64,000 nt of DNA from Alphaproteobacteria bacterium (GTDB taxonomy: Bacteria > Pseudomonadota > Alphaproteobacteria > Futianiales > Futianiaceae). Of the stretch, positions 1,216 through 14,346 are shown piece after piece (the stretch's first letter is position 1; every line of letters begins with the position of its first letter). The DNA lies in NCBI GenBank assembly GCA_965204825.1, contig OZ242016.1:1249252-1313251 (forward strand). The letters run 5' to 3'. The notes beneath the pieces are model-generated. The model did not search any database and was not told where the DNA came from. It saw only the letters and a list, made by a program, of their open reading frames with translations. The translations under genes and the position numbers were made by a program.

Positions 1216-1814
1216 AACGGATCGCCCGGCATTCCCAACTGGCTGTGGCTGGTGCTGGTTGCCATCCTGATCGGTAATCTGCTGGTTCCCAGTCTGACGA
1301 CGAACCAGGCCGGCATGACCGAGGTGTCCTATACCAGGTTCCTGGAAGCGGTGCGTGGCGGCGATGTTGAGAAGGTCACCCTGCGCGATCTTGAAATCAC
1401 CGCCATCCTGCGCAAGGCCGTCTCGGTCACCGACGGCACGCCGGAACGGCTGCGTACCCGGGCGCCCGAGATGGGCGATCCTCGATTGCTGGCGCTGCTG
1501 GCAGAACACAATATCGAAATCATCAACGAACCGACGCCCACGCCGGGCATTCTGGTGACCATGCTGCCGTGGATCATCATGCTGGGGTTGTATTTCTGGA
1601 TCTGGAACCGGATGTCACCGATGGGCGGCAGCGAACCGTTCGGCAGCGGCATCAAGGATTTCCTGGCCGGGTCAGCTTCAAAGGAACAGAAGTCCGGCGA
1701 ACGGGTGACGTTCGACGACGTCGCCGGCCAGGAAAACGGCAAACGCGAGGTCGCCGAACTGCGCGAGGTCGCCGAGCTGGTCGAGTTCCTGAAAGACCCC
1801 GAACCATTTCATAA
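1216..1814 (+). pseudogene. ftsH: ftsH-like AAA protease N-terminal remnant (TM region and linker up to just before Walker A), lacking a start codon and interrupted by an IS
   Basis: The translation NWLWLVLVAILIGNLL...SYTRFLEAVRGGDVEKV...[31 protein letters not shown] matches the FtsH N-terminus through the region preceding the P-loop. An in-frame TAA at 1213 sits where the start codon should be. The reading frame runs straight into the IS left inverted repeat at 1815. Confidence 0.6.
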
Positions 1815-2839
1815 GGCTCAGTTTACAAGCCGTGTGCGTTCATGTTATGTTTTTTGTGAAATCAGAAGGATGGATTGACATGGATCACAAGCAGTTTCAG
1901 GAATGGTTATCGGGGATAGACCACCTCAGCCCGGCGCAACGGCAGCAAACCGAAGCCGTGTTCCTGGGGGACACGGAGACGTCAGCGTCGCTGGCTGCCA
2001 TTGAAGCGGCCGTGGGTGGAGATCGCCAGTGCCCGCATTGTGGCACGCCAGGCGCCATATCGCGTGGCAAGGCAAGGGGTCTGCGACGGTACCAGTGCAA
2101 AGAATGCAGGAAGACATTCAATGCCGCGACCGGCACCCCCTTGTCGGGTCTGCACCGCAAGGACAAGTGGCTTTCCTTCGGAGCCTGTCTTGCTGATGGG
2201 CTGACGGTTCGCGCTTCAGCAGAACGTTGCGGACTTGCCGTCAACACCGCCTTCCGTTGGCGGCACCGATTTCTTGCCGCAAAAGACCTGAAGGCACGCA
2301 AGCTCACGGGCATTGTGGAAGCCGATGAAACCTATGTGCTGGAAAGCCGGAAAGGTGCACGAAACCTTGAGCGCAAGGCGCGACGCAGGGGAGGCAAGGC
2401 CAGCAAGCGGGGCCTGTCAGATGAACAGGTTCCGGTACTGGTTGTCGCTGATCGCAGCGGCGCGACAGTCAGTGCGGTTCTGCCCGCGGTCAACGCAGAT
2501 ACCTTGCGAGAGGTGATCGCACCGGTTGTGGACGAGGATATCGTTTTGGTGACCGATGGACACCGCGCTTATCCGCGATGCGCGGCGGCAATCGGTGCGC
2601 ATCACGAAGCATTGAACCTGTCACGAAGTGAACGGGTGCGAGGTGCCTTTCACATTCAGACGGTCAACAACCGACACAGCCGGTTGAAGGATTTCTTGCG
2701 GCGCTACCGAGGCGTCGCGACCAGATATCTCGACAACTACCTGCGATGGTTCCAGCGGCTTGAACTGGAGAACGCCTCACCCCGGGCCTGCCTCGCAACC
2801 GCCATCGCACGTCCATGCATACAATTCGTGAACTGAGCC
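1815..2839 (+). mobile_element. IS1595-family insertion sequence (~1025 bp) with imperfect terminal inverted repeats and an 8-bp target-site duplication
   Basis: Terminal IRs are GGCTCAGTTTACAAG (1815-) and the reverse complement of ...TTCGTGAACTGAGCC (-2839). The exact 8-bp direct repeat TTTCATAA flanks the element at 1807-1814 and 2840-2847. A single transposase ORF fills the element. Confidence 0.85.
1880..2836 (+). CDS. IS1595-family DDE transposase
   Basis: An N-terminal zinc-ribbon (CPHCG...YQCKECRKTF) is followed by a DDE core with IVEADETY and TDGHRAY motifs typical of IS1595/ISXO2-like transposases. An RBS-like AAGGA lies 9 nt upstream of the ATG at 1880. The stop codon TGA lies inside the right IR. 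Confidence 0.8.
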   Translation: MDHKQFQEWLSGIDHLSPAQRQQTEAVFLGDTETSASLAAIEAAVGGDRQCPHCGTPGAISRGKARGLRRYQCKECRKTFNAATGTPLSGLHRKDKWLSFGACLADGLTVRASAERCGLAVNTAFRWRHRFLAAKDLKARKLTGIVEADETYVLESRKGARNLERKARRRGGKASKRGLSDEQVPVLVVADRSGATVSAVLPAVNADTLREVIAPVVDEDIVLVTDGHRAYPRCAAAIGAHHEALNLSRSERVRGAFHIQTVNNRHSRLKDFLRRYRGVATRYLDNYLRWFQRLELENASPRACLATAIARPCIQFVN

Positions 2840-2910
2840 TTTCATAAAATAGGTGCCCAGGCGCCGCGCGGCGTGCTGCTGATGAGACCGCCGGGCACCG
2901 GCAAGACGTG
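2840..2910 (+). pseudogene. ftsH: ftsH-like remnant continuing after the IS: Walker A (GVLLMRPPGTGKT), then an immediate stop
   Basis: Reading through the duplicated TTTCATAA gives FHKIGAQAPRGVLLMRPPGTGKT*, the FtsH P-loop. The rest of the AAA and protease domains is absent, so the 3' part has been deleted. Confidence 0.5.
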
Positions 2911-2971: not shown

Positions 2972-4555
2972 TCAGTCCTTGCCCCGGGCGATCTCCAAAG
3001 CCTGGCGCGCCGAGGCTGTAACCTTTTTCGGTGCCAGCCCGGCATTGATCCGGCGCCAACCGATCTTGCCCGGATCGTAGGCAAGCTGGGTTTCGACCAC
3101 GCCGGCATCTGCATCCGAGGCATCGCCGCGCCGGTGGGTGACCCGGTCGACCAGCGTCGCCCTGCCGGCTTCAAGCCACAGACCGTCGAACGTCACACCG
3201 GCCGCGTCGGCGATATCCTCAATCGCCCGGCGCTCGTCCGGGCGGGCATGTACCGCATCGACAACCACGCTGGTCCCGGCTTGCAGGGCCGCCAGTGCCT
3301 TGTCGCGCAGCCGGGCATAGATCCGGTCCGATGCCTCGGGTGTGTAGGCCTCGTCCGGCAAACGGTCGGTCAGGGCGGTGCCCGACAGCACCTTGCGCTC
3401 CACATCGCTGCGCAGATGGAGCGCGCCCGGCGGACCGCCCAGATCAGGGGCGACCCGGCGGCCCAGCGTGGATTTCCCGGTGCCGGACAGGCCGCCGATC
3501 GCCACAAGGCGCGGCGGGGCCGGATCCAGCAGACGTGCCGCGAGTTCGAAATATTGATGGGCCTCGCGCGAGGCCCGGCGCCGAGGCGTTTCGTCCGCCG
3601 CAACGGCAAAGAGATCGCCGGCCACCTTGGCGCGGATCGCGGCGCGCACGGACAGAAACAGGGGCAACAGCGCCAGCCCGGCGACGTCCCCGGGCGTTTC
3701 GCGCGCCATGTAATGGTTCAGGACGCTGTTGGCGTGGCTCGGCAGATCGCGGTGAACCAGGTCCATCAGCAGAAACGCCAGATCGTAGAGAATGTCGATG
3801 ATCGCAAGGTTTTCATCGAATTCAAGCGCGTCGAACAGAGTTGGCTTGCCGTCCAGCACGACGATATTGTGCAGGTGAAGATCGCCATGGCAGCGCCGGA
3901 CCTTTCCGCCATGCTGGCGTGCTGATAGCGGCGGACCGAGGTGGTCCAGCACGGATCGGCTGCGGTTGATCAGACCTTGAACGGCGAGAGGTCGAAAAAG
4001 CTCGGGGCGAACGTCGAAGGAATCCTGGTTTCCGGCGATCAGTCCAGCCATGGCCGCAACAGCATCCGTCCCGCGATGTCGAGGCGCCTTGTCGTGAAAC
4101 GCGTGCGCCGCCTCCGCCAACTGCGGCATCAGATCGAGTGGCAATTCATCTCTTTCGGCCATCTTATCCAACAGATGTTCCTGGCCGAAACGGCGCATGT
4201 GAACGGCCCAGTCGACGACGGACCCGGGTCCATTGATCCCCAGCCCGCCGCCGTGTTCGGAAGTGATCCGGTCGAGGCCCAGATAAATTTGCGGCGCCGT
4301 TTGCCGGTTCAGTTCCAATTCGCGGGCACAGGCCCTGCGCCGTTTCTCCAAGGTCGAAAAATCCATATAGGAATAGGCGACAGGGCGTTTGATCTTCCAC
4401 ACATCGTTTCCGGCGAGAAAAACCCAGGCTCCGTGAGTTTCGATCAGTTCCTGCCGCACCGAACCTGCCCGCCGACGCAGACAGGCCGAAAAAACGGCCG
4501 GATCGAACCGGTTCGCCAGGGTTTCGACCACGGCGAAAACCGCCACCGGGATCAA
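2972..4555 (-). CDS. bifunctional aminoglycoside-phosphotransferase-like / P-loop kinase (AAA-domain) protein
   Basis: The N-terminal half has APH/protein-kinase-like motifs (HGDLHLHNIVVLDGKPTLFDALEFDE). The C-terminal half carries Walker A GGLSGTGKST and resembles gluconate/adenylate-kinase-like P-loop kinases. This domain pair is common in alphaproteobacteria. Confidence 0.75.
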   Translation of the reverse strand: MIPVAVFAVVETLANRFDPAVFSACLRRRAGSVRQELIETHGAWVFLAGNDVWKIKRPVAYSYMDFSTLEKRRRACARELELNRQTAPQIYLGLDRITSEHGGGLGINGPGSVVDWAVHMRRFGQEHLLDKMAERDELPLDLMPQLAEAAHAFHDKAPRHRGTDAVAAMAGLIAGNQDSFDVRPELFRPLAVQGLINRSRSVLDHLGPPLSARQHGGKVRRCHGDLHLHNIVVLDGKPTLFDALEFDENLAIIDILYDLAFLLMDLVHRDLPSHANSVLNHYMARETPGDVAGLALLPLFLSVRAAIRAKVAGDLFAVAADETPRRRASREAHQYFELAARLLDPAPPRLVAIGGLSGTGKSTLGRRVAPDLGGPPGALHLRSDVERKVLSGTALTDRLPDEAYTPEASDRIYARLRDKALAALQAGTSVVVDAVHARPDERRAIEDIADAAGVTFDGLWLEAGRATLVDRVTHRRGDASDADAGVVETQLAYDPGKIGWRRINAGLAPKKVTASARQALEIARGKD

Positions 4556-4987: not shown

Positions 4988-5108
4988 ATGGCAAACTTCC
5001 ATTTCCAGGGATTTTTCGCAGAATTGCCGCGTTTCGGTCCGGCGGGATTGATCCCGCTCAAGGCGATCCGGCCGCCGGGCAGGTTCCATTATGCCTTGCG
5101 AGGACGAC

Positions 5109-5647
5109 ATGAAGAAAATACTGGTTGCCACCGACGGATCGGATCATGCCGGCAAGGCTGTCGAGCTGGCCGCCGATATTGCCTCGAAGTACGACGCCGA
5201 TCTGATCATTCTGCATGTCAGCGGACACAAGCCCCTGAGCAAGGGCGAAAGACACCTGGTCGAGGTCGAACTGGCCGACGAGGTTCTGAAATACTGAAAT
5301 ACATTGCCGAGGAACCACGCGAGATTTTCGAGGGGTTCGCCCGGTCCGGCATCAGCGATTTCTTCATGGGCCACGAAAAGCGCGACATGGCGATCCGCAC
5401 CGCCATCGGCCACGCCATTCTGGAGCGCGCCGAAGCAGATGCCCGCCGCCACGGCGTCAGGGAAATTCGAACCGTTCTGGAAAACGGCGAACCGACCGCC
5501 AGGATCATTCAGACCGCAACCGACGAGGGTGTCAACCTGATCGTCCTCGGCAGTCGCGGCATCGGCAACCTGGTCGGCATTTTCGGTGGCAGCCTCTCGA
5601 ACAGGGTGAACCATCTGTCGGACATCACCGTGGTGACGGTGAATTAG
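5109..5647 (+). pseudogene. universal stress protein (UspA family) gene disrupted by a +8 frameshift
   Basis: The N-terminal part MKKILVATDGSDHAGKAVELAADIASKYDADLIILHV is in one frame. The C-terminal part ...GVNLIVLGSRGIGNLVGIFGGSLSNRVNHLSDITVVTV (the UspA ATP-binding motif) is in the +2 frame. The switch falls at the tandem duplication at 5286-5302. Confidence 0.7.
5287..5302 (+). repeat. perfect 8-bp tandem duplication (TGAAATAC x2) causing the usp frameshift
   Basis: The sequence ...ctgaaatacTGAAATACattg... is seen directly. Removing one copy restores a single UspA reading frame. Confidence 0.7.
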
Positions 5648-5649
5648 CA

Positions 5650-6864
5650 CTACAGCCCCGCCCGGTCCACAATCCGGGTGCCGTCGCTGATGCGGTCGCT
5701 GGGGTGCAGAATGACGCCGTCGCCGATCTCCAGGCCTTCCAGAATTTGTGCCGTGCGGGAATTGCGCCGGCCGATGGTGACGGGTGTCAGCATGGCCGTA
5801 CCATCAACGGCCCGGTAGACCGTCCATTCGCCCCCCGTTCGGAAAAGGGCGCCGAGAGGAACCAGTGGGATGTCATCCGCGGCCCAGGCGCGGATGCGGA
5901 CGAAAACGCGGTAATCATGACCAAGGCCAGACCAATCCCGGGGCGGGCTTTCGATCTCCAGCACGACATTGACACGCTGTTCGTCAATACCGAGGGCTGA
6001 AACCTTCATGAAGCCGGCCGGATCGACCCGGATCACCCGAGCCTTGAGCGGGACGTCGCCGCCCCAGCGTTCAATTGCAGCGATCATGTCCGGGGCCACC
6101 TTCACGGCGTCGCGGGACAACAGATCGGTGACGATCTCCAGATCGTGCGGATCGCCGATTTCGACCAGCGGCTGGCCCGGGGCAATGACCTGCTGGCTTT
6201 CGGTCAGGATGCGCAGCACGCTGCCGGATGTCGGCGCGGCGACATTGACACAACAGTTCGAGGGCTGCTCGCTTGGCAGTTCTTCCGGTCCGATCAGTGC
6301 CGCCTGGGCGCGATTGAACTCCTGTTCCCGGACACCGATATTGGCCTCGGCGGTTGCCAGATTGGCGCGGCGAATTTCCATTTCCATGCGGGCCCGGTCC
6401 AGAGCCTGTGCGGAGATCGTGTTGCGCCGCGCCAAAACCGCGGCACGGTCATGCTCGGCCCGCCAATAATCCAGCTCCGCCTGGACCCGGCCGCGTTCGG
6501 CCCGGGCCAGCGACAGGCCGGCCTGGGCGCCGCGGACACCGGCTTCGGCGGCCTGGCGTGCCCGGGCATCCAGGAACGGCGGGGCTTCCGGTTCGATGAT
6601 CGCCACGATGGTCTTGCCGCCCTCGACCACATCACCGACTTCCAGCGGCGAGCGCAGCATCCGGCCGGGCACCGGCGCGGACACGGCATAGATCTCGCGG
6701 ATTCGGGTGACGCCTTCCTCGTCGATTGTCACTTCCAGCGTGCCGGTGGAAATCCCGGCAATGTCGACCGGCACAGGTTGCGGCTGGAAGGCCCAGAAAA
6801 ACAACGCCGCGATAATCGCCAGAAAGACAACCGGCCAGATCATGTTTCCCAATTTGTCGAACAT
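5650..6864 (-). CDS. HlyD-family periplasmic adaptor (membrane fusion protein) of the ABC exporter
   Basis: It has an N-terminal TM anchor, a long coiled-coil (RANLATAEANIGVREQEFNRAQA) and a beta-barrel/lipoyl-like C-terminus. It is the last gene of the operon with the ABC ATPase and permease. Confidence 0.8.
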   Translation of the reverse strand: MFDKLGNMIWPVVFLAIIAALFFWAFQPQPVPVDIAGISTGTLEVTIDEEGVTRIREIYAVSAPVPGRMLRSPLEVGDVVEGGKTIVAIIEPEAPPFLDARARQAAEAGVRGAQAGLSLARAERGRVQAELDYWRAEHDRAAVLARRNTISAQALDRARMEMEIRRANLATAEANIGVREQEFNRAQAALIGPEELPSEQPSNCCVNVAAPTSGSVLRILTESQQVIAPGQPLVEIGDPHDLEIVTDLLSRDAVKVAPDMIAAIERWGGDVPLKARVIRVDPAGFMKVSALGIDEQRVNVVLEIESPPRDWSGLGHDYRVFVRIRAWAADDIPLVPLGALFRTGGEWTVYRAVDGTAMLTPVTIGRRNSRTAQILEGLEIGDGVILHPSDRISDGTRIVDRAGL

Positions 6865-6868
6865 GGTT

Positions 6869-9298
6869 CTAATCCCGTGTTTTTAGGACCTGAATGAGGT
6901 CGAGCTGATCAATCCGGCGGCGCACGATCAGCGCCGACAGAACGGCGGCTCCAAGGACGACCAGCGTGGCAAAGGCATAGGTTTGCCGCTCGATGATCAG
7001 CGGCACCCGATAAAGCTCGCTTTGCAGGCCCGCCGTAACGGACCAGGCAAACATGTAGCCGAACAACCACCCGAACGGCATCGCCATCACGGTCAATAGC
7101 GTCAGTTCACCCAGCAGGACGATTGAAACCTCGCCCCGGGTAAAGCCCAGCACCCTCAGGCTGGCCAGCTCGCGCGCCCGTTCCGACAGGCTGATCCGGG
7201 CGCTGTTGTAAACCACGCCAAAAGCAATCACCAAGGCGAGCGAGGAATAGACCGTAACCATGATCTTCATGTTCTGCGCCATGTGCCGACGAAAGGATTC
7301 CAGCGAGCGTTCCAGAAGGGCAATGGCACTCACCGCGGGCATGTCCTTGACTTGCCGATACAGCTCCGTGCGTTCTTCCGGGTCGGTAGCCAGATGCACG
7401 CCCGAGATGACGTCACCCTCGCGCAGCATCGCGTTCAACGCGTCCAGCCGCATATAGACCCCAAGCCCGATATATTGCTGCAAGATGGCGGTGATCGGCA
7501 CATCGAACATCTCGCGGTTTCCTTCCAGCAGCTCGATCCGCAGCCGGTCGCCGGGGCCGACCTCCAGCAATTGGGCCAGCTTCTCGGTCAGGGCGATGCC
7601 GGTATCCGGCAGGATGACCGGATCGAGATTGAGATTGATGACACGGCTGAGATCGGCATGTTGTGATACCGGGGTCAGCCAGAACGGATCCATGACCGGC
7701 GTCCGGGTGGCGTCGTCACCCGACGGTTTGCCGGTCAATACCGATCGCTCCACAAGGTGGCCATTGACCAGGCGGACCGGCATCGTCCGGTAAGGCTCCG
7801 CCATCAGCACACCCGGTAACCGGGCGGCCGCCTGTAGGGCGCGACCACCGGCTTCGGGCGCAAAGACCAGGGTGGCATCCTGTCGGTCAGCGCGGAAATA
7901 CGTGGCGTCGATCATATGTTCGATCGAATCCAGCGCGAACAACGACCCCACAAGAACCGCAATCGACAGCGCGGTTCCCAATGTCGTCATCATGGTGCGC
8001 ACCGGCCAGCGCACCATATGCCTTGTGATCATCGCCGCCATCGGTGGCACTCGCTCGGCCAGCAGGGTCAGCCCGGCGAAATAACGGCGGTACTGCATCG
8101 GTGCGGGCGGCGACATGGCCACGGCGGGCGCCAGGGCAATGACACCGGAAACGCTTTTTAACCCGCCACCCAGCGCCGCGGTCACGCTCGCCAGACCGGA
8201 GATCAGAAACACATCGGCGGTGTCGAGAAAGATCAGGAACGGGAAATTGAATAATCCGGAATAGAGCACCGTCAGCCCGCGCCCGAGCCAGATCCCGGCT
8301 GCCCAGCCGATCCCCGTGCCGATTGCCGCGATCAGGATGATCAGTTTGGCGTAATGCAGAGTCACTTCCAGTCGGCCATATCCCAGTGCCTTCAACAAAC
8401 CGATCTGCTCGCGCTCCAGTGCGATCATCCGGGACAGGGTGATGTTGACCAGAAAGGCGGCGACGCCGAGGAAGATCGGCGGCAGAACCCAGCTCATGCT
8501 GCGCAACTGCTCGAGTTCGGCATTGATGAAAGCGTGAGATTGCTGGTCCTCGCGGCCATAGGCCGCCTGGCCGCCATAGGGCGCCAGCAAATCGTCGATA
8601 CGCGCCATGACCTCCGGCTCGGATGCCCCTTTTAACAAACGCGCGTTGATCGAATTGAAAGCTCCCTCCAGATCATAAGCGGCCGCGGCGGCGCGATACG
8701 GCATCCAGATGATACCAAAGCGCTTGTCATCGGGCATCAGCGCGCCCGGGCCCAGGGCATAGATGAACTCCGGAGACAAGGCCGTGCCGACGATCCGCAA
8801 GGACCGCTTGCGGCCGTTGACGATGGCCTCGAACGTGTTCCCCGGGAGGAATCCATGTGCCCTGGCGAAACCTTCGGTGACCACCACCTCGTCATCGCGG
8901 AACGGATCGGGCAGACGACCGGTGCGCAGGTGCAGACCATTAAGACCGGGCTGACCGCTTTCCGGCAGGGAGACGATGAATCCGGTAGCCGGCTCGATCA
9001 TGCCCTCAATGTCCAACAGGGCCGCCTTGGCGATCCGGGTCTCGACCTGGGCAATGCCGTTGATCGCGGCCAGGCGTTCCTCGACCTCCGCCGGCACCCG
9101 TGTGGCCGTGGCAAAGACATCTGCAAAGCGGTACCGGTCGTAATAGGCCGCGCGCGTTTCATGGAGCGACCGCTGAGCGCCGACACCCAGCACCAGGGTC
9201 GCAACCCCGGCCGACAGGACCAGCGAGATCGCCAGCGCCTGGGTCCAGATCCGGCGCAGATCGCGCAGCAGTTTCCGGTCGAGCGGGCGAATCACCAT
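6869..9298 (-). CDS. ABC transporter permease with two FtsX-like domains (MacB/DevC-type, 809 aa)
   Basis: It has the duplicated FtsX 4-TM architecture with large periplasmic domains. It overlaps the upstream ATPase gene and the downstream HlyD gene. Confidence 0.85.
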
Positions 9299-9999
9299 GA
9301 CACCTCCGACGGGGCGAGGCGGGTTTCGTTGATCTCTTCACGGGCAATCGTGCCGTCGGCGAAATACAGCACCCGGTGAGCGATCTGCCGGATCGTCACA
9401 TTGTGGGTGATGATGACGGTCGTGGTGCCCAGATCGCGATTGACGTCGGTCAGCGCCTGCAGCACCTGCACCCCCGTCTTGCTGTCCAGCGCGCCGGTCG
9501 GTTCGTCGCACAGCAGCACTTCGGGGCGCTTGGCGATGGCGCGGGCGATGGCCACACGCTGCTGTTCACCGCCCGACAACTGAGCCGGGAAGTGATCCAT
9601 GCGCTCCGCCAGGCCGACACGGGCAAGTGCCTCCTCCGGAGTCATCGGATCGATCGCAATCTGGGTCACCAGAGCTACGTTCTCACGTGCCGTCAGGCTG
9701 GGCACCAGATTATAGAACTGAAAGACAAAGCCCACATGATTGCGCCGGTAAAGCGTCAGGCCACTTTCACCCATGCCGGTCAACTGTTCATCCTTGAACC
9801 AGGCTTCACCATCTGTCGGCGTATCAAGCCCGCCCAGGATATTCAGCAAGGTCGATTTGCCGCTGCCGGAGGGGCCGAGCAGCACGACCACCTCGCCGGC
9901 ATTGAGCCGCAGATCGACACCGCGCAGGGCGTGCACGTCCACTTCACCGGTGTGGTAGACCTTGGTCAGGCCGCTGGACGTGAAGACAGGATTGCTCAT
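9292..9999 (-). CDS. ABC transporter ATP-binding protein (LolD/MacB-ATPase/DevA-like)
   Basis: It carries Walker [13 protein letters not shown], the signature [14 protein letters not shown] and Walker [12 protein letters not shown]. The start is taken at MSNPVFTSS. Confidence 0.85.
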
Positions 10000-10125
10000 G
10001 GCCGAAATCTGGCGGCTGCAAGGAAATGCGCCCTTGCGTGAGATCAACCGATAATACGTACGCATTTGCCGGCCCGCCCAGAGGCTGCGGCAATGTGCCC
10101 ATCCGAAAAAACCTTATCAGCAGAA

Positions 10126-10139
10126 CCCCTTATAAGGGG
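10126..10139. promoter_or_regulatory. perfect 14-bp palindrome CCCCTTATAAGGGG in the divergent region between the ABC exporter operon and the crp/fnr gene
   Basis: The palindrome is seen directly. It sits ~80 bp upstream of the likely Crp-family start. It is a candidate operator. Confidence 0.3.
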
Positions 10140-10220
10140 ATTTCACGACTATTTACCGGGGGTTGGTTCGTTAATTTGGTGATGCATCGCAGACAGGCGG
10201 GCAGTTCAACGGAGGCGAAA

Positions 10221-10922
10221 ATGCATCACCAGTCACAAGCTTCAATCGAGGCGCGGATCGACCCCAATCTGGCGGCCCTGGCCAATGAAGAGAACATTGG
10301 CAGTCTGGACAGCCTGTTTGTCGAACACGGCACCGTGAAACGCTTTCAGCCTGGCGAAGTTGTTTTCATGGAGGGCGACGATGCTCATTCGGTATACCGG
10401 ATTGCTTCCGGCATGGTGCTGGCCTGTGTCATTATCCGGGACGGTCGGCGCCAGATCGCGCGGTTCGTTTCGGACGGCGGCTCCATGGGACTGACGGCCC
10501 GGGACACGCACAGCTATACGGCCGAAGCGGTTGATTGCGTCGATGTCCAGATCTGCCCGCGTGCGATGTTCGACGCCGCGATACTGGAAAACCGGACAAT
10601 CCACGAGGAAATGATGCAGGCAATTTCCGTCGAACTGGCCGCCAGCCGCGATCTGATGGTTCTGCTGGGCCGAATGACGGCAATCGAAAAGACCGCCTCA
10701 TTCCTGGTAAAACTTGCCGACCAGCTTCGATGCTCGAAGGCCGGCTTTATCCGCCTGCCGATGACCCGGGCGGATATTGCCGACTATCTGGGCCTGACCC
10801 TGGAGACCGTCAGCCGGCTCCTGAACGGGCTCAACCGTGACGGCGTCATCGACATGCCAACGCCTGACCGGTTCCGCGTCGCCGACCGTGACGCGCTACA
10901 TTCCCTGGCCACACCGATATAG
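10221..10922 (+). CDS. Crp/Fnr-family transcriptional regulator
   Basis: A cNMP-binding beta-roll (FVEHGTVKRFQPGEVVFMEGDDAHSVYRIASGMV) is followed by a C-terminal HTH (RADIADYLGLTLETVSRLL). The start is uncertain: the ORF is open from 10026, and in-frame ATGs lie at 10183 and 10221. Confidence 0.75.
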   Translation: MHHQSQASIEARIDPNLAALANEENIGSLDSLFVEHGTVKRFQPGEVVFMEGDDAHSVYRIASGMVLACVIIRDGRRQIARFVSDGGSMGLTARDTHSYTAEAVDCVDVQICPRAMFDAAILENRTIHEEMMQAISVELAASRDLMVLLGRMTAIEKTASFLVKLADQLRCSKAGFIRLPMTRADIADYLGLTLETVSRLLNGLNRDGVIDMPTPDRFRVADRDALHSLATPI

Positions 10923-10957
10923 CCGCTTCCCTCCCCTGGCTTATCGATGGGCAATAC

Positions 10958-10992
10958 GGCCCGCGCCTCTCCCCGGCGCGGGCCTTTACTTT
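10958..10992 (+). terminator. Rho-independent terminator of the crp/fnr gene
   Basis: A GC-rich 10-bp stem GGCCCGCGCC / GGCGCGGGCC with a 7-nt loop is followed by TTTACTTTG. It lies 35 nt after the stop codon and immediately abuts the left end of the mobile element. Confidence 0.55.
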
Positions 10993-11120
10993 GGGAATCA
11001 TATACGATAATGCCCAGAAATAACTTGACCGCTTGACTTTAATTTTGATTCAACAGTGCCCAATATAGAGGTTTGAAATGACGCAGAAAGCGCCCGGAAA
11101 ATCGCTAGAAACTGTTTCAG

Positions 11121-12024
11121 ATGTTCCCCGACGACGCAATCTCTGGGAAGTGGTTTGCGGAACAGCGGTGGCCAGATGGTGCGCATTGCCCACATTGTGG
11201 TTCCGTGAACGTTCTCTCCGGTGCCAAGCATAAGACTATGCCCTATCGGTGCCGCGAAAAGGAATGTCGGAAACGGTTCAGCGTCCGCACCGCAACGCCG
11301 ATGGAATGCTCCAATTCTCGGTTATCAGATTTGGGCAAGCGCGATTTACCTCATGACCACCAGTCTAAAGGGTGTGTCCTCAATGAAGCTGCACCGCGAT
11401 CTTGAGATCACCCAGAAATCCGCATGGCATTTGGCACACCGCTTGCGCAAGGTGTTGGAAAATGATGGTGTTGATTTGCCTTTCAACGGCCCAGTGGAAG
11501 CTGATGAGACGTACATGGGCGGCAAGAAGAACAAGCATCCGAAGAAGAAGCTGAAGGCCGCCGGACGCGGCTCGGTGGGCAAGACCGCTGTTGCGGGCGT
11601 CAGGGGCCGGAACACGGGTCAGGTCGTGGCCAAAGCCGTCGACAAGACGGACGCGGAAACTTTGCAGGGGGTCGTGACCGATCACACCGCAGAGGATGCG
11701 CAGATCTTTACCGATGCGCCAGTGCGTACAAGGGGATCGACAGACCACATGAGGTGGTCAGACACTCAGTCGGGGAGTATGACCCACAAGAACGGTCTCG
11801 AAAACTTCTGGGCACCGCTCAAACGCGGCTACAACGGCGCCTATCACAAGATGTCTCCGAAGCATCTGGATCGGTACGTCAGCGAGTTCTCGGGACGGCA
11901 CAACAACCGGCCAAAGGATACGGTCAACCAGATGAAAGGTCTTGTTTCCGGCATGGAAGGTAAGCGGCTTCGCTCTGTTGATCTGATTGCACCTAACGGA
12001 TTGCCCAGCGGAGCGCGGTCATGA
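11121..12024 (+). pseudogene. IS1595-family (ISXO2-like) transposase with at least three frameshifts
   Basis: The zinc-ribbon N-terminus (CPHCGS...YRCREKECRKRFSV) is followed by ILGYQIWASAIYLMTTSLKGVSSMKLHRDL and the DDE core (VEADETYMGGKK...). Homologous segments lie in three frames, with switches near 11300, ~11725 and ~11765. For example, YKGIDRPHEVVRHSVGEY is in one frame and THKNGLENFWAPLKRGY in another. Confidence 0.75.
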
Positions 12025-12656
12025 GCCACAACGACGCGGCAACCGATCTATCCAGATTTCTCGGTTCTCAAAAGTTCTCAACGGTCATGGCCGATCCGCC
12101 ATGGCGCTTTACCAATCGCACGGGCAAAGTTGCCCCGGAACACAAGCGGCTTGCCAGATATCCGACCATGAGGCTTGAAGACATCTGTGCCCTTCCCGTT
12201 GCTGAATTCATGGAAGATCGTGCGCATTGCTATCTTTGGGTTCCGAACGCACTGCTCCCTGAAGGCTTACAGGTCATGTCGGCTTGGGGCTTCACGTACA
12301 AGTCAAACATCATTTGGCACAAGACCCGCAAAGACGGGGGGTCTGACGGGCGCGGAGTCGGGTTCTATTTCCGCAATGTCACGGAAGTTCTTCTGTTCGG
12401 AATACGTGGCAAGAATGTAAGAACGCTTCAACCTGGCCGACGGCAGGTTAACCTGTTTGGAACGCAAAAGCGGGAACATTCTCGCAAGCCCGACGAACAA
12501 TATGACATTTTCGAAAGTTGCAGCTGGGGGCCATACCTGGAACTGTTCGGGCGCGGGCGTCGCGATAACTGGACGGTTTGGGGAAACCAGTCATCCGACG
12601 ATTACAAACCGACTTGGGACACGTATAAATACAACTCTGCGGTCGCGGTGGAATGA
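12021..12656 (+). CDS. MT-A70-family DNA methyltransferase (N6-adenine or N4-cytosine class with a DPPW motif)
   Basis: Motif IV VMADPPWRF and the S-adenosyl-L-methionine (AdoMet)-binding region (NIIWHKTRK...GFYFRNVTEVLLFGIRGKN) are present. The start ATG overlaps the transposase stop (ATGA). Confidence 0.8.
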   Translation: MSHNDAATDLSRFLGSQKFSTVMADPPWRFTNRTGKVAPEHKRLARYPTMRLEDICALPVAEFMEDRAHCYLWVPNALLPEGLQVMSAWGFTYKSNIIWHKTRKDGGSDGRGVGFYFRNVTEVLLFGIRGKNVRTLQPGRRQVNLFGTQKREHSRKPDEQYDIFESCSWGPYLELFGRGRRDNWTVWGNQSSDDYKPTWDTYKYNSAVAVE

Positions 12657-12662
12657 TCGCGC

Positions 12663-13361
12663 ATGTCTGACAATGAGACAAGTTTGTTTTCCGAGAACAT
12701 CAGACGGAAGTTCGAGATCCACAGCTATCGGAACGCGGTGTCGATATTGGCCAACAGTTTCCCCGGCCAATTTTCACATGTGGCGGACGCTTTGGAGAAA
12801 TTCGAGATCACAACTGAAATGATCCGGCGTCCCGGTGGCAGCAAAGGCGAAATCGCCCGTTATGTCGACACGCTGTTTCCATCACCGGATTGGGTTGAAA
12901 CTCGGATTACAGCCGACCTCATGGTTCGATTGGAGCATGCGAAGAAAAGCGGGGGCATCCTTCGCAAATACATCCGCAAAGGGTTTCTCGACGGCCACAG
13001 GATTGATTTCGTTTCTGGAAAGGTTGCGCTTGATTTAGAGTGGAACAGCAAAGATCAAACATATGATCGGGACTTGTATGCGTTTTCGGCCTTCTACGAC
13101 GCGGGCGCAATAGACGTTGGAATCATACTGACACGTGGTTCATCCTTGGATAATGCGTTCTTTCAGAGACTCGGGAAGGTTCTGAACAAAGACGGAACCG
13201 AAGGCACCGAAGAAGTGTACAAGAAGTTTGGGGCATCAACCACATGGATGGGTAAATTGCTTTACAGGCTTGAGGCAGGGCGCAACGGCGGTTGCCCTGT
13301 GCTGGCGATTGGAATCAAACCTGAGTGTGTTGGAAGAAAAAATGGAAAAACGGAAATCTGA
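12663..13361 (+). CDS. BamHI-like Type II restriction endonuclease
   Basis: It aligns by eye to the BamHI catalytic core. RIDFV corresponds to BamHI PID94V. ALDLEWNSKDQTYDRDLYAFSAFYDAGAIDVGIILTR corresponds to BamHI GMEFETGNISSAHRSMNKLLLGLKHGEIDLAIILMP, so E111/E113 are replaced by D/E here. It lies immediately downstream of the MTase. Confidence 0.7.
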   Translation: MSDNETSLFSENIRRKFEIHSYRNAVSILANSFPGQFSHVADALEKFEITTEMIRRPGGSKGEIARYVDTLFPSPDWVETRITADLMVRLEHAKKSGGILRKYIRKGFLDGHRIDFVSGKVALDLEWNSKDQTYDRDLYAFSAFYDAGAIDVGIILTRGSSLDNAFFQRLGKVLNKDGTEGTEEVYKKFGASTTWMGKLLYRLEAGRNGGCPVLAIGIKPECVGRKNGKTEI

Positions 13362-13512
13362 TTATTACACGAAAGTCATGGACCGGGGATACCAGCCCAA
13401 CAAGCAGGACATGAACAAGGATGTGGGCGTTCCCGTGCCGCCAGACCGATTGGCACAGGCCGTCATGCGTGGAGGCGCGGACCGCAGAGGGCCAAATGAA
13501 GAAAATCCCTGA
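13342..13512 (+). CDS. small hypothetical ORF (56 aa) inside the mobile element, overlapping the endonuclease stop
   Basis: MEKRKSDYYTKVMDRGYQPNKQDMNKDVGVPVPPDRLAQAVMRGG... lies in a lower-GC region. It could be a controller or accessory protein, or it could be spurious. Confidence 0.2.
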   Translation: MEKRKSDYYTKVMDRGYQPNKQDMNKDVGVPVPPDRLAQAVMRGGADRRGPNEENP

Positions 13513-13601
13513 GTTGATGGAAGAAACTATTTATGGCGTAGGCGTTCAATACCATCAAGTTTTAGAGTCCGTACGATTGGGCACTATCGTATATAATTCC
13601 C

Positions 13602-13960
13602 TTTACCTTTGCGTTCACGAGTCCTGACCCTCCTCTGTCCCTGGCCCTCTTGCCGGTGAACCATGTGACCGCCAGCGGCACCGCGATCAGCAGCCCCGGG
13701 ATCAGCGCCGCCAGCGCGACCCTGTTGGCCGATTCAGTAACCATGGCACTGCCGAAATGGGCAAGCAGAAAACCAGCCGGAACGATTCCGGCCATGGTGG
13801 CGACGGCAAACCGCCAAAACGCCAGCGCCGTCGGACCGGCCACGTAGCAGATGATGTCAAAGCCGACAAAGGGCATCAGGCGGCTGGCGAACACAGTCCA
13901 CATCAGGAAATTCCGCGACCCGACCAGACCCTGTGTCAAATGATCGCCGAACCCGTGATG
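13602..13960 (-). pseudogene. TVP38/DedA-family membrane protein C-terminal fragment
   Basis: The translation ...FLMWTVFASRLMPFVGFDIICYVAGPTALAFWRFAVATMAGIVPAGFLLAHFG... matches the C-terminal half of TVP38/TMEM64-type proteins. The N-terminal half is absent. The frame runs into the IS right end. Confidence 0.45.
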
Positions 13961-14015
13961 GACAAGGCCTCGGACCCTGCAAGCACATGCAACCCGCCCC
14001 ACCAGCAACACGGCC

Positions 14016-14258
14016 ATGGCCGCCGTCTTCCTGCCCATTGCCGCCGCCATCGAACTGGGCCTCGATCCGCTGACCCTGATCTTACCGGTGGCATTGGCCG
14101 CCTCGCCGGGATTCATGCTGCCGATAGCGATCCCGCCCAACGCCATTGTCTTTGGCAGCGGCGAGATGATCGCCGGTCAGATGTTGCAGGCGGGGTGGAT
14201 TCTCGACATCGTATCCATCCTGATTGCTTTTGGCGTCGCGTTGTTTATTGCCCCCTGA
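14016..14258 (+). pseudogene. C-terminal ~80-aa fragment of an anion/DASS-type (ArsB/NhaD-superfamily) permease
   Basis: The translation AAVFLPIAAAIELGLDPLTLILPVALAASPGFMLPIAIPPNAIVFGSGEMIAGQMLQAGWILDIVSILIAFGVALFIAP* resembles the last two TM helices of SLC13/CitT-like permeases. There is no upstream body. Confidence 0.4.
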
Positions 14259-14346
14259 TCATCCCGGCTGCCGGTTGATCCTGGACAAGTCCGGGTCTGC
14301 GATAGCGGGAAGAATGGCCGTATCGGCCAATGGACAGACCTGCTGT

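What the first reader, a model, noticed from the sequence alone, without database searches (positions are those of the whole stretch)
10993..13601. IS1595-family element carrying a complete Type II R-M system (MT-A70 methyltransferase + BamHI-like endonuclease) as passenger cargo
Matching 24-bp terminal IRs (22/24) and a near-perfect 8-bp target duplication (TTTACTTT / TTTACCTT) enclose more than a transposase. They also enclose a methyltransferase whose ATG overlaps the transposase stop (ATGA), a BamHI-fold endonuclease and a small ORF, all at lower GC (~50%) than the flanks. Ordinary ISXO2-like elements are ~1 kb, so this is a cargo-carrying transporter IS that mobilises a restriction-modification system. 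The transposase now carries at least three frameshifts, so the R-M pair may be stranded here. The element sits exactly at the base of the crp terminator hairpin.
Basis: partly seen in the sequence, partly recalled or inferred. Interest (0 to 1): 0.8.

Follow-up and report, generated by a model that had tools for sequence, protein, structure and literature searches.

The report
Restriction-modification genes inside a dead transposon
A 2.6-kb insertion sequence that carries its own DNA-marking and DNA-cutting enzyme pair landed just behind a regulator gene and then lost its transposase. Intact relatives sit in many copies in other marine bacteria, so this group of insertion sequences does move whole restriction systems around.

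Summary

**The element.** Window 10993-13601 is a 2,609-bp IS1595-family transporter IS. It has 24-nt inverted repeats (22/24), and shuffles give no such match. It is flanked by TTTACTTT/TTTACCTT, the T-tract of the crp terminator.

**Its genes.** It holds a transposase pseudogene with four frame-breaking indels. It also holds an intact MT-A70 methyltransferase, an intact BglII/BstYI-family endonuclease (not the BamHI family by sequence) and a 56-aa ORF.

**Mobility of relatives.** Elements about 75% identical occur at 7 or more sites in each of two other metagenome samples. They have the same repeats, intact transposases, the R-M pair inside the ends and perfect 8-bp duplications.

- The small ORF belongs to the IS backbone, not to the R-M cargo.
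- The same R-M pair is usually stand-alone in Alphaproteobacteria.
- Related transposases carry at least seven other kinds of R-M cargo.
- The two short (about 1.5 kb) relatives examined are deletion derivatives that keep R-M remnants.
- A sister strain shares the insertion but has lost the R-M.

**Verdict.** Transporter ISs of this family are a known category, so this is a new member. The family-wide pattern of R-M cargo is the more interesting result.

The parts
10958..10984 (+). Stem-loop of the intrinsic terminator of the upstream Crp/FNR-family gene (10221-10922)
   Evidence: Terminator scan: 10 G-C pairs, loop of 7, followed by TTTACTTT. Crp domains by Pfam.
10985..10992 (.). Left copy of the 8-bp target duplication (TTTACTTT), which is also the T-tract of the terminator
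   Evidence: Relatives make perfect 8-bp, A/T-rich duplications (82% A+T over 37 sites).
10993..11016 (+). Left terminal inverted repeat (IRL)
   Evidence: It differs at 2 positions from the consensus GGGAATTATATACGATAGTGCCCA found in relatives.
11025..11062 (+). Probable operon promoter: -35 TTGACC (11025-11030), 18-nt spacer, -10 TTCAAC (11049-11054). It overlaps a second copy of the IR inner motif (ACAGTGCCCA, 11053-11062), which is a putative transposase operator.
   Evidence: The layout is conserved in about 15 related elements, and the IR motif and the motif at the -10 box co-vary. The window copy has TTCAAC where its closest relatives have TTCAAT. Function is inferred, not shown; the generic promoter scan did not call this site.
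11078..12024 (+). IS1595-family transposase pseudogene (zinc ribbon plus DDE domain) with four frame-breaking indels
   Evidence: Pfam PF12760 and PF12762 in different frames. Alignment with intact 324/325-aa relatives gives -20 after 11102, +1 at 11315, -1 after 11716 and -11 after 11781. tblastn hits are split.
12021..12656 (+). MT-A70-family (class beta, DPPW motif) DNA methyltransferase, 211 aa, intact ORF. Its ATG overlaps the transposase stop codon (ATGA).
   Evidence: Pfam MT-A70 E = 5.7e-28. PADLOC MTase_II E = 1.5e-88. PDB relatives are MT-A70 DNA/RNA m6A enzymes. Same length as in intact elements, with dN/dS 0.03-0.04.
12663..13361 (+). BglII/BstYI-family type II restriction endonuclease, 232 aa, intact ORF
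   Evidence: Pfam Endonuc-BglII E = 1.2e-39. A family profile hits BstYI (1SDO); D115, D124 and E126 align with the first D, the E and the Q of the BstYI stretch DFVKDRVAIEVQ, and are invariant or nearly so in 17 homologues. dN/dS 0.04-0.07.
13342..13512 (+). 56-aa ORF of unknown function. It is a backbone gene of this IS group, not R-M cargo.
   Evidence: Homologues lie next to the right end in elements with other cargo and in a 1.5-kb deletion derivative. dN/dS is about 0.17. No Pfam, NCBIfam or PADLOC family. The structure model has low confidence, with one helix.
13578..13601 (-). Right terminal inverted repeat (IRR), identical to the consensus of relatives
13602..13609 (.). Right copy of the target duplication (TTTACCTT, one substitution)

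Best explanation
Window 10993-13601 is one decayed copy of a transporter IS of the IS1595 family.

**Layout of the intact element (shown).** The order is IRL, promoter, transposase (325 aa: zinc ribbon plus DDE), a cargo slot, a small backbone ORF, then IRR. All genes point the same way and are tightly packed or overlapping. In this lineage the slot holds a complete type II restriction-modification pair: an MT-A70-type methyltransferase followed by a BglII/BstYI-family endonuclease.

**How it moves (shown in relatives).** The whole unit moves together, R-M included. It inserts into A/T-rich 8-mers and duplicates them.

**How it is expressed and regulated (inferred).**
- The DDE transposase binds the 24-nt repeats.
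- One promoter in the left end drives the whole operon, methyltransferase before endonuclease.
- A second copy of the IR inner motif at the -10 box lets the transposase repress that promoter.
- The IS gives the R-M pair mobility within and between genomes. The R-M pair gives the IS an addictive or defensive function.

**History at this locus.**
- The element inserted into the T-tract of the crp terminator.
- The transposase then acquired four frame-breaking indels, three of them shared with a sister strain.
- The copy can no longer move by itself.
- The methyltransferase, endonuclease and small ORF remain intact ORFs with conserved catalytic residues.
- Whether they are still expressed is not shown.
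For: **Structure.** IRs, 8-mers, domains and indels are.

**Mobility of the composite.**
- Set A (ENA ERZ25067590, L002-L010) is a 2,794-bp element. Copies are at least 99.7% identical, with seven different perfect duplications.
- Set B (ERZ18545485, MAGs labelled Roseovarius and Limibaculum, L011-L024) is a 2,578-bp element. Copies are at least 99.7% identical, with four perfect duplications plus recombinant flanks.
- Every copy has transposase (324/325 aa), MT-A70 (211 aa) and a BglII-like gene (228/232 aa). In almost all copies a 53/56-aa ORF was also called, inside the same repeats.

**Long association.** All four ORFs are under purifying selection, while synonymous sites among window, A and B are mostly saturated (dS 1.2 or more in the three large genes; dN/dS 0.03-0.17).

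**Family membership.** An intact relative scores 176 bits on NCBIfam transpos_IS1595 against a cutoff of 75.

**Enzymes.** DPPW motif and MTase_II models. The catalytic D/D/E residues align with BstYI.

**Promoter and operator.** The layout is conserved and the motifs co-vary.

**Selection after transposase death.** All four frame-breaking indels fall in the 947-bp transposase and none in the 1,492 bp of M, R and small ORF. Under uniform decay this has probability of about 0.02 (my arithmetic).
Against: **No direct evidence of activity.** Nothing here shows methylation, cleavage or transcription.

**Signs that the operon may be weakened.**
- The window copy has a T-to-C change at the last base of the putative -10 box.
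- It has two changes in IRL.
- Premature stops lie upstream of the R-M genes, which could reduce expression through polarity.

**Current dispensability.** In the sister contig L109 (98.7% identical) the similarity ends 50 nt into the methyltransferase, at the end of another IS. So this R-M is dispensable in this lineage.

**Gaps.** No empty site was found. The recognition sequence is unknown. The right-hand 8-mer differs by one base.
Confidence: 0.9

Rival explanations
1. The R-M genes at this locus are now a silent relic. The element is a fossil in which M, R and the small ORF are merely not yet disrupted, so there is no working restriction system here.
For: - The -10 box reads TTCAAC against TTCAAT in the closest relatives, and IRL has mutated.
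- Transposase frameshifts lie upstream in the same operon.
- The sister strain lost the R-M without obvious harm.
- No avoidance of AGATCT or GGATCC is seen in the window.
Against: - Three ORFs totalling 1.49 kb are intact, while the 0.95-kb transposase took four frame-breaking indels (p about 0.02).
- The catalytic residues are conserved.
- An internal promoter cannot be excluded.
Confidence: 0.4
2. The inverted-repeat match is coincidental, or the R-M pair lies outside the true IS. On this reading an ordinary 1-kb IS simply sits next to an unrelated R-M island.
For: The same M-R pair is usually found without any IS in other Alphaproteobacteria.
Against: - The repeat is unique in the window and absent from shuffles.
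- The identical repeat sequence closes elements with the same gene order at 11 or more other sites with perfect duplications.
- The small backbone ORF lies beyond the R-M genes, next to IRR.
Confidence: 0.01
3. The R-M pair is the autonomous mobile agent and inserted itself into a pre-existing IS. It would be a nested insertion of an R-M unit rather than cargo moved by the transposase.
For: - R-M units with their own repeats and 8-bp duplications have been described (Furuta et al. 2010, PMC2853133).
- The same M-R module sits in a second IS lineage whose transposase is only 39% identical (L070/L071).
- The cargo differs between close transposases.
- Together these show that the slot is refilled somehow.
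Against: - No repeats or duplications bound the M-R segment inside the element.
- The methyltransferase start overlaps the transposase stop.
- The copies in sets A and B are delimited by the IS ends, so present-day movement is of the whole IS.
- How cargo first entered the slot remains unknown.
Confidence: 0.05

Closest known systems
[quoted passage not shown]
   Same: - A single DDE transposase with an N-terminal zinc ribbon.
- Short terminal inverted repeats and an 8-bp target duplication.
- Passenger genes inside the ends.
- The ends start GGGAATTAT, which fits my recollection of the ISNwi1-subgroup consensus (ggnnatTAT; from memory, not checked against ISfinder).
   Different: - The passenger here is a complete type II R-M pair.
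- The group has a conserved small second ORF next to IRR.
- It also has an IR-like motif at the promoter.
- I could not read the 2009 paper or query ISfinder. I therefore cannot say whether this element, or R-M cargo in this subgroup, is already catalogued. Furuta et al. cite the 2009 paper for IS-flanked R-M or M genes, which suggests something similar was seen.
Transposon-like R-M units (Furuta, Abe & Kobayashi 2010, PMC2853133)
   Same: R-M genes bounded by imperfect inverted repeats with an 8-bp target duplication. One case (N. gonorrhoeae NCCP11945) has 26-bp repeats and a degenerate COG3677 transposase-like gene.
   Different: - Those were single-copy cases, and the authors could not say what moved them.
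- Here intact relatives with a working-length transposase occur in many near-identical copies, so the mobile unit and its driver are clear.
BglII and BstYI restriction-modification systems
   Same: - The endonuclease matches Pfam Endonuc-BglII.
- A family profile aligns its catalytic stretch with BstYI (1SDO).
- MT-A70-clade methyltransferases are reported as partners in BglII-type R-M systems (Iyer et al. 2016, PMC4738411).
   Different: - No pairwise sequence hit to any solved structure.
- The third catalytic position is E, as in BamHI, where BstYI has Q at the aligned position.
- The DPPW motif predicts N6-adenine methylation.
- The recognition site is unknown.
Stand-alone MT-A70 plus BglII-like pairs of Alphaproteobacteria (for example L025-L069) and Comamonas plasmid pZM22-2
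   Same: The same two protein families lie adjacent, at 65-81% (endonuclease) and 67-90% (methyltransferase) amino-acid identity in the M-then-R loci L025-L069.
   Different: These have no transposase, no repeats and no small ORF. In some the gene order is reversed (R then M), or the two genes face each other.
Tn7-like and other transposons with defence cargo (from memory: Benler et al. 2021)
   Same: A transposable element whose cargo region is repeatedly filled with defence or addiction modules.
   Different: This is a minimal IS with one DDE transposase and a cargo of 1-3 genes. It has no targeting machinery.

Membership tests
IS1595 family of insertion sequences | Transposase with the DDE_Tnp_IS1595 (ISXO2-like) catalytic domain | tested here: met
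   Pfam PF12762 E = 2.4e-27 on the window pseudogene. An intact relative scores 176 bits on NCBIfam NF033547 against a cutoff of 75.
IS1595 family of insertion sequences | N-terminal zinc-ribbon domain | tested here: met
   PF12760 at 29.1 bits against a cutoff of 25.4. CPHCG...C..C is conserved in 10 relatives.
IS1595 family of insertion sequences | Terminal inverted repeats and an 8-bp target duplication | tested here: met
   24-nt repeats at 22/24, and 8-mers at 7/8 here. Relatives have perfect 8-bp duplications.
IS1595 family of insertion sequences | Intact catalytic D, D, E (plus K/R) in one open reading frame | tested here: not met
   D149, D219, E252 and K259 are conserved in intact relatives. 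The window gene is broken by four frame-breaking indels, one next to the second D. It is a pseudogene of a family member.
ISNwi1 subgroup of IS1595 | End consensus ggnnatTAT and a DDEK transposase (criteria recalled from ISfinder, not verified here) | tested here: inconclusive
   The ends are GGGAATTAT and the DDE-K spacing fits. ISfinder could not be queried.
Transporter IS (tIS) | Passenger genes unrelated to transposition lie between the IS ends and move with it | tested here: met
   Sets A and B, plus L106-L108, L110 and many others, keep the cargo inside the repeats with a duplication outside them.
Type II restriction-modification system | Separate, adjacent methyltransferase and endonuclease genes with intact catalytic motifs | tested here: met
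   MT-A70 with DPPW, and PADLOC MTase_II at 1.5e-88. Endonuc-BglII with conserved D115, D124 and E126. The genes are 6 nt apart and co-oriented.
Type II restriction-modification system | Sequence-specific methylation and cognate cleavage | not testable with these tools
   This needs a methylome or enzyme assays. REBASE is not available here.
   The Pfam scan returned only Endonuc-BglII, and the profile search of PDB returned only BstYI. That BamHI shares the fold with BglII is established knowledge, not tested here.
C-protein-controlled R-M systems | A small helix-turn-helix controller gene belonging to the R-M unit | tested here: not met
   The 56-aa ORF has no HTH or other family match. It is absent from stand-alone M-R pairs. 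It is present in elements with other cargo and in a deletion derivative that has lost its cargo.

The most novel reading that the evidence does not exclude
This element may be one member of a large clade of IS1595-type insertion sequences, mostly in marine and host-associated Alphaproteobacteria. On this reading the clade acts as a dedicated shuttle for restriction-modification and other addiction modules.

- **Fixed chassis.** The ends, an autoregulated promoter, the transposase and a small conserved ORF stay the same.
- **Exchangeable slot.** The slot holds many unrelated R-M types: MT-A70/BglII-like, Dam-class/NotI-like, Dam-class/other REase, N6_N4-HNH and N6_N4-Mrr fusions, Eco29kI-like and Mom/PvuII-like. 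One element carries a Panacea-domain antitoxin.
- **Copy number.** Complete type II R-M systems reach at least four to seven distinct insertion sites in single samples or genomes.
- **Spread.** Near-identical copies occur in different genera.
- **Short forms.** The two roughly 1.5-kb forms examined arose by internal deletion of the cargo. The transposase of one (L101) represents a cluster of 202 sequences.

I did not find this pattern described in the searchable literature.
Probability: 0.5. Interest if true: 0.75.

Novelty: new member of a known kind. Interest (0 to 1): 0.55.

Why it matters
R-M systems are argued to behave as selfish mobile elements, but clear cases where the vehicle and its mechanism are visible are few.

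- **The vehicle is explicit here.** It is a minimal DDE insertion sequence that moves a complete type II system as one unit. It does so to many sites in a genome, and apparently between genera.
- **This links two processes.** IS expansions, common in symbiont genomes, become tied to the spread and dosage of restriction systems.
- **It suggests mutual benefit.** The R-M pair gains mobility and the IS gains an addictive or defensive function.
- **It yields natural, compact R-M cassettes.** These are 2.5-3 kb, self-contained and possibly autoregulated.
- **It touches eukaryotic m6A enzymes.** The MT-A70 partner belongs to the bacterial radiation from which these enzymes are thought to derive (PMC4738411). 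A mobile form of that module is therefore of some evolutionary interest.

For this particular locus the practical message is modest: it is a fossil copy with a possibly still-coding R-M pair.

Tried and rejected
1. **Methylation-coupled control of the ends.** An AGATCT or GATC site abuts IRR in sets B and A. It is absent from the window copy, L110, L112 and others, so the idea was dropped.
2. **Avoidance of AGATCT or GGATCC in the window.** None was seen: 16 and 14 sites against roughly 9 and 21 expected. The recognition site stays unknown.
3. **Small ORF as controller protein or R-M component.** Rejected, because it is present in elements with other cargo and in a deletion derivative that has lost its cargo.
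4. **Fold of the small ORF.** The single-sequence model has low confidence (pLDDT 58), so no fold search was done. phmmer over 1.8 billion representatives found only 18 relatives.
5. **Empty site.** The only close relative of the flanking crp gene (L109) already carries the insertion.
6. **Naming the source organism.** The window's proteins are in the collection without names, and the contig look-ups failed.
7. **Phage carriage.** The repeat pattern has no exact match in IMG/VR. Only more distant transposases (62% identity or less) occur there, and they were not followed up.
8. **Plasmid search.** Only the methyltransferase matched broadly. One Comamonas plasmid carries the pair in R-M order without an IS.
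9. **Siguier et al. 2009 and two reviews** could not be retrieved.
Full report
**1. The observation**

- The arms 10993-11016 and 13578-13601 are complementary at 22 of 24 positions.
- Allowing three mismatches, they are the only two occurrences in the 64-kb window. None arose in 100 dinucleotide-preserving shuffles.
- They are flanked by TTTACTTT and TTTACCTT.
- The left 8-mer is the T-tract that directly follows a 10-G-C-pair hairpin (10958-10984). This hairpin lies downstream of a Crp/FNR-family gene.
- The interior has 52.8% G+C against 60.9% for the window.

**2. Gene content**

Pfam finds the following.
- The IS1595 zinc ribbon and the ISXO2-like DDE domain lie in two different reading frames.
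- An MT-A70 methyltransferase occupies 12021-12656. Its ATG overlaps the transposase stop codon as ATGA.
- An Endonuc-BglII domain protein occupies 12663-13361 (E = 1.2e-39).
- A 56-aa ORF at 13342-13512 has no family.

The methyltransferase matches PADLOC type II methyltransferase models at 1.5e-88. Among solved structures it is closest to MT-A70-type m6A enzymes, and it carries DPPW.

The endonuclease has no pairwise hit in the PDB. A profile of 17 homologues aligns its catalytic stretch with BstYI. D115, D124 and E126 take the places of the first D, the E and the Q of the BstYI stretch DFVKDRVAIEVQ, and these columns are invariant or nearly so. So 'BamHI-like' should read 'BglII/BstYI family'. 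That BamHI shares this fold is textbook knowledge and was not tested here.

**3. Related copies elsewhere settle the interpretation**

The endonuclease has thousands of homologues. Two of the closest were looked up in their contigs.
- P0003 (87% identity) lies in nine contexts in ENA sample ERZ25067590.
- P0004 (82%) lies in ten contexts in ERZ18545485. These contigs are deposited as MAGs labelled Roseovarius and Limibaculum.
- In every one the order is transposase (324/325 aa, intact), MT-A70 (211 aa), BglII-like (228/232 aa). A 53/56-aa ORF follows in almost all.

The same 24-nt repeat (consensus GGGAATTATATACGATAGTGCCCA) bounds all of them, giving elements of 2,794 and 2,578 bp. Copies within a set are at least 99.7% identical, while their flanks are unrelated.

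The flanks show perfect 8-bp duplications.
- Set A: ATCGAAAA, TTTTTTTA, AATGTTTT, CATGAATA, AAAAAAAA, TAAAAAAA, AAAAAAAG.
- Set B: CAACGTAA, AAATGAAT, CAAAATTG, TTCTATTT.

The ends are homologous IS ends, and the R-M genes lie inside them in related copies.

**4. State of the window copy**

The window element is about 75% identical in DNA to both sets. Aligned with them, its transposase has four frame-breaking indels:
- -20 after 11102
- +1 at 11315
- -1 after 11716
- -11 after 11781

It also has two in-frame 3-nt indels. By contrast, M, R and the small ORF have the same lengths as in the intact elements.

Selection:
- Pairwise dN/dS is 0.05-0.11 for the transposase, 0.03-0.04 for M, 0.04-0.07 for R and about 0.17 for the small ORF.
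- dS is 1.2 or more in the three large genes, mostly saturated. The four genes have therefore travelled together for a long time, and the transposase died recently relative to that divergence.
- All four frame-breaking indels hit the 947-bp transposase and none hit the following 1,492 bp. Under uniform decay this has a probability of about 0.02 (my arithmetic). That is modest evidence that the cargo stayed under selection.

No second copy of the repeat or of this transposase lies in the window.

**5. A sister strain**

The flanking Crp protein has one 99%-identical relative, on contig L109 from ERZ25068762.
- That contig is 98.7% identical to window 5039-12072.
- It carries the same insertion at the same site and shares three of the four frame-breaking indels, but not the +1 at 11315.
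- Similarity stops 50 nt into the methyltransferase gene. There the terminal repeat of a different, ordinary 1-kb IS1595-family element begins.

So the insertion and most of the transposase decay predate the split of the two strains, and the R-M pair has since been destroyed in one of them. No empty site was found.

**6. The R-M module is usually not IS-borne**

A scan of one genome per species returned 80 loci with relatives of the endonuclease.
- Most have an adjacent MT-A70 gene but no transposase, no repeat and no small ORF.
- They come from Rhodobacterales, Sphingomonadales, Hyphomicrobiales and others.
- Exceptions are the set-B genomes, two degraded copies (L078, L084) and L070/L071.

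L070/L071 is a MAG labelled Candidatus Poriferihabitaceae. There a 3,182-bp element has 36-nt perfect repeats that also begin GGGAATTAT, with perfect duplications CTCGTTTT and AAAAAAAG. It carries the same M-R module behind a transposase only 39% identical to that of set B. The module has therefore entered, or been exchanged between, two deeply diverged IS lineages.

**7. The small ORF and the cargo slot**

Close homologues of the transposase were looked up in context.
- P0185 (68% identical, four copies in the same Roseovarius chromosome) and P0125 (77%) carry a fused N6_N4 methyltransferase-HNH nuclease in place of M and R. A 53/57-aa ORF follows.
- P0129 (75%, a cluster of 202 sequences) sits in a 1,528-bp element with only a 58-aa ORF after the transposase.
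- These small ORFs align with the window's (YQPxKxDMxxDVxVxVxPERLAQAV..GGA.RR). The elements with P0125 have the identical repeat and perfect duplications.

Hence the small ORF belongs to the IS chassis, and the cargo sits between it and the transposase.

The 1,528-bp element still encodes 29 residues of the MT-A70 N-terminus (E = 1e-12) and about 57 residues of the BglII-like C-terminus (E = 4e-10). It is therefore an internal deletion of an R-M-bearing element. A 1,502-bp element (L139/L140) likewise keeps a remnant of the fusion protein.

**8. Breadth of the pattern**

A metagenome scan with a transposase alignment gave 80 loci at 55-79% identity. In about 27 of them both ends could be found, mostly with perfect 8-bp duplications, and the lengths were 1.5-4.9 kb.

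Cargo by Pfam and PADLOC:

| Cargo | Loci |
|---|---|
| MT-A70 plus a divergent BglII-like gene | L110/L111 |
| Dam-class methyltransferase plus a type II REase model | L112 |
| Dam-class plus NotI-like | L185 |
| Dam-class plus unknown | L180 |
| N6_N4 methyltransferase fused to an Mrr-type nuclease | L113 |
| N6_N4 methyltransferase fused to HNH | L116, L134 |
| N6_N4 plus a weak REase match (L119) or an unknown gene (L124); N6_N4 with no partner examined (L188) | L119, L124, L188 |
| Eco29kI-like endonuclease | L123 |
| Mom-like plus PvuII-like | L155 |
| Panacea-domain antitoxin | L137 |
| KilA-N protein | L162 |
| Reprolysin-type peptidase | L187 |
| Proteasome-like protein | L127 |
| No family found | several |

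Counting the elements found earlier, about 19 of 34 distinct bounded elements carry recognisable R-M-type genes. Pooled target duplications are 82% A+T, which explains why a terminator T-tract was hit in a 61% G+C genome.

**9. Inferred regulation**

The left ends of these elements share a layout:
- the repeat;
- about 8 nt;
- TTGAC-like hexamer;
- 17-18 nt;
- a -10-like hexamer (TTCAAT, TACAAT, TATAAT...);
- then a second copy of the inner half of the repeat (ATAGTGCCCA).

The two copies change together from element to element: AAGTCACA in L102 and L152, ACTAGCCA in L155, AAGTGCCAT in L116. In three elements the second copy is inverted.

I read this as a promoter whose -10/+1 region is a binding site for the protein that binds the ends. 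That would give autoregulation of the whole operon, R-M included. This is inference from conservation and covariation. The generic promoter scan did not call the site. In the window copy the -10 box reads TTCAAC and IRL has two changes, so expression may be impaired.

**10. Comparison with what is known**

- Transporter ISs are an established category. According to the TnCentral authors they are restricted to the IS1595 and IS66 families.
- Furuta et al. described R-M units bounded by inverted repeats with 8-bp duplications. One includes a degenerate COG3677 transposase-like gene. They also cite the IS1595 paper among reports of IS-flanked R-M or M genes.
- The pairing of MT-A70-clade methyltransferases with BglII-type systems is noted by Iyer et al..
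- I found no paper in the searchable library that describes this IS group or its varied R-M cargo.

**11. Verdict**

The locus itself is a fossil: an immobile tIS copy whose R-M pair is intact on paper but of unproven activity. As a kind it is a new member of a known category. The family-level pattern is the part worth following up: modular R-M cargo, multicopy type II systems, short derivatives made by cargo deletion, and near-identical copies in two genera.

Noticed in passing
window 1813-2841: A second, ordinary IS1595-family element of about 1.03 kb. It has 25-nt inverted repeats and a 334-aa transposase with zinc ribbon, HTH and DDE domains, only 27% identical to the tIS transposase. In sister contig L109 the end of a related copy abuts the methyltransferase gene at the point where similarity to the window stops.
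   Followed up: partly
window 13610-14260: The DNA right of the element is gene debris. A VTT/DedA-like ORF on the minus strand reads into the IS right end. An 80-aa C-terminal fragment of a Na/sulfate symporter lies at 14016-14258.
   Followed up: partly
window 11025-11062; left ends of L003, L018, L102, L106, L110, L112, L116, L123, L152, L155: The inner half of the terminal repeat is repeated at the -10 box of a conserved promoter-like layout. The two copies co-vary between elements, which suggests a transposase operator controlling the whole operon.
   Followed up: partly
L101 2917-4444; L139 710-2211: These short (about 1.5 kb) relatives keep short coding remnants of the methyltransferase and endonuclease (or of the fusion enzyme). 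They therefore arose by internal deletion of R-M cargo. The L101 transposase represents a cluster of 202 sequences.
   Followed up: partly
L011-L016 (Limibaculum MAG) and L017-L019, L024 (Roseovarius MAG), sample ERZ18545485: Copies at least 99.7% identical occur in MAGs assigned to two genera of one sample. Several Limibaculum copies have mismatched flanking 8-mers that pair up across loci (TATCAATT, TTCTATTT, TTTTCGAA). This points to recombination between copies, or to assembly variants.
   Followed up: no
L003, L004, L008, L009, L010 around locus positions 3300 and 6110: Several insertions of the set-A element fall in the same A8 tract of an IS630-like (DDE_3/HTH_33) element. They occur at offsets of one base and in both orientations. 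L003 and L004 share identical nested flanks in different genomic contexts.
   Followed up: no
L070 and L071 4326-7507: A 3,182-bp element with 36-nt perfect repeats and perfect duplications carries the same M-R module. Its transposase is only 39% identical to that of set B, and a different small ORF follows the endonuclease.
   Followed up: partly
L155 5436-6642; L137 5797-6243: Unusual cargo in related elements: a Mom-family protein overlapping a convergent PvuII-like endonuclease gene, and a Panacea-domain (SocA-like) antitoxin.
   Followed up: no
P0363 (771 aa) and P0367 (3,569 aa): Two long proteins match residues about 10-50 of the 56-aa ORF in 9 and 5 separate stretches. This is unexplained.
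   Followed up: no
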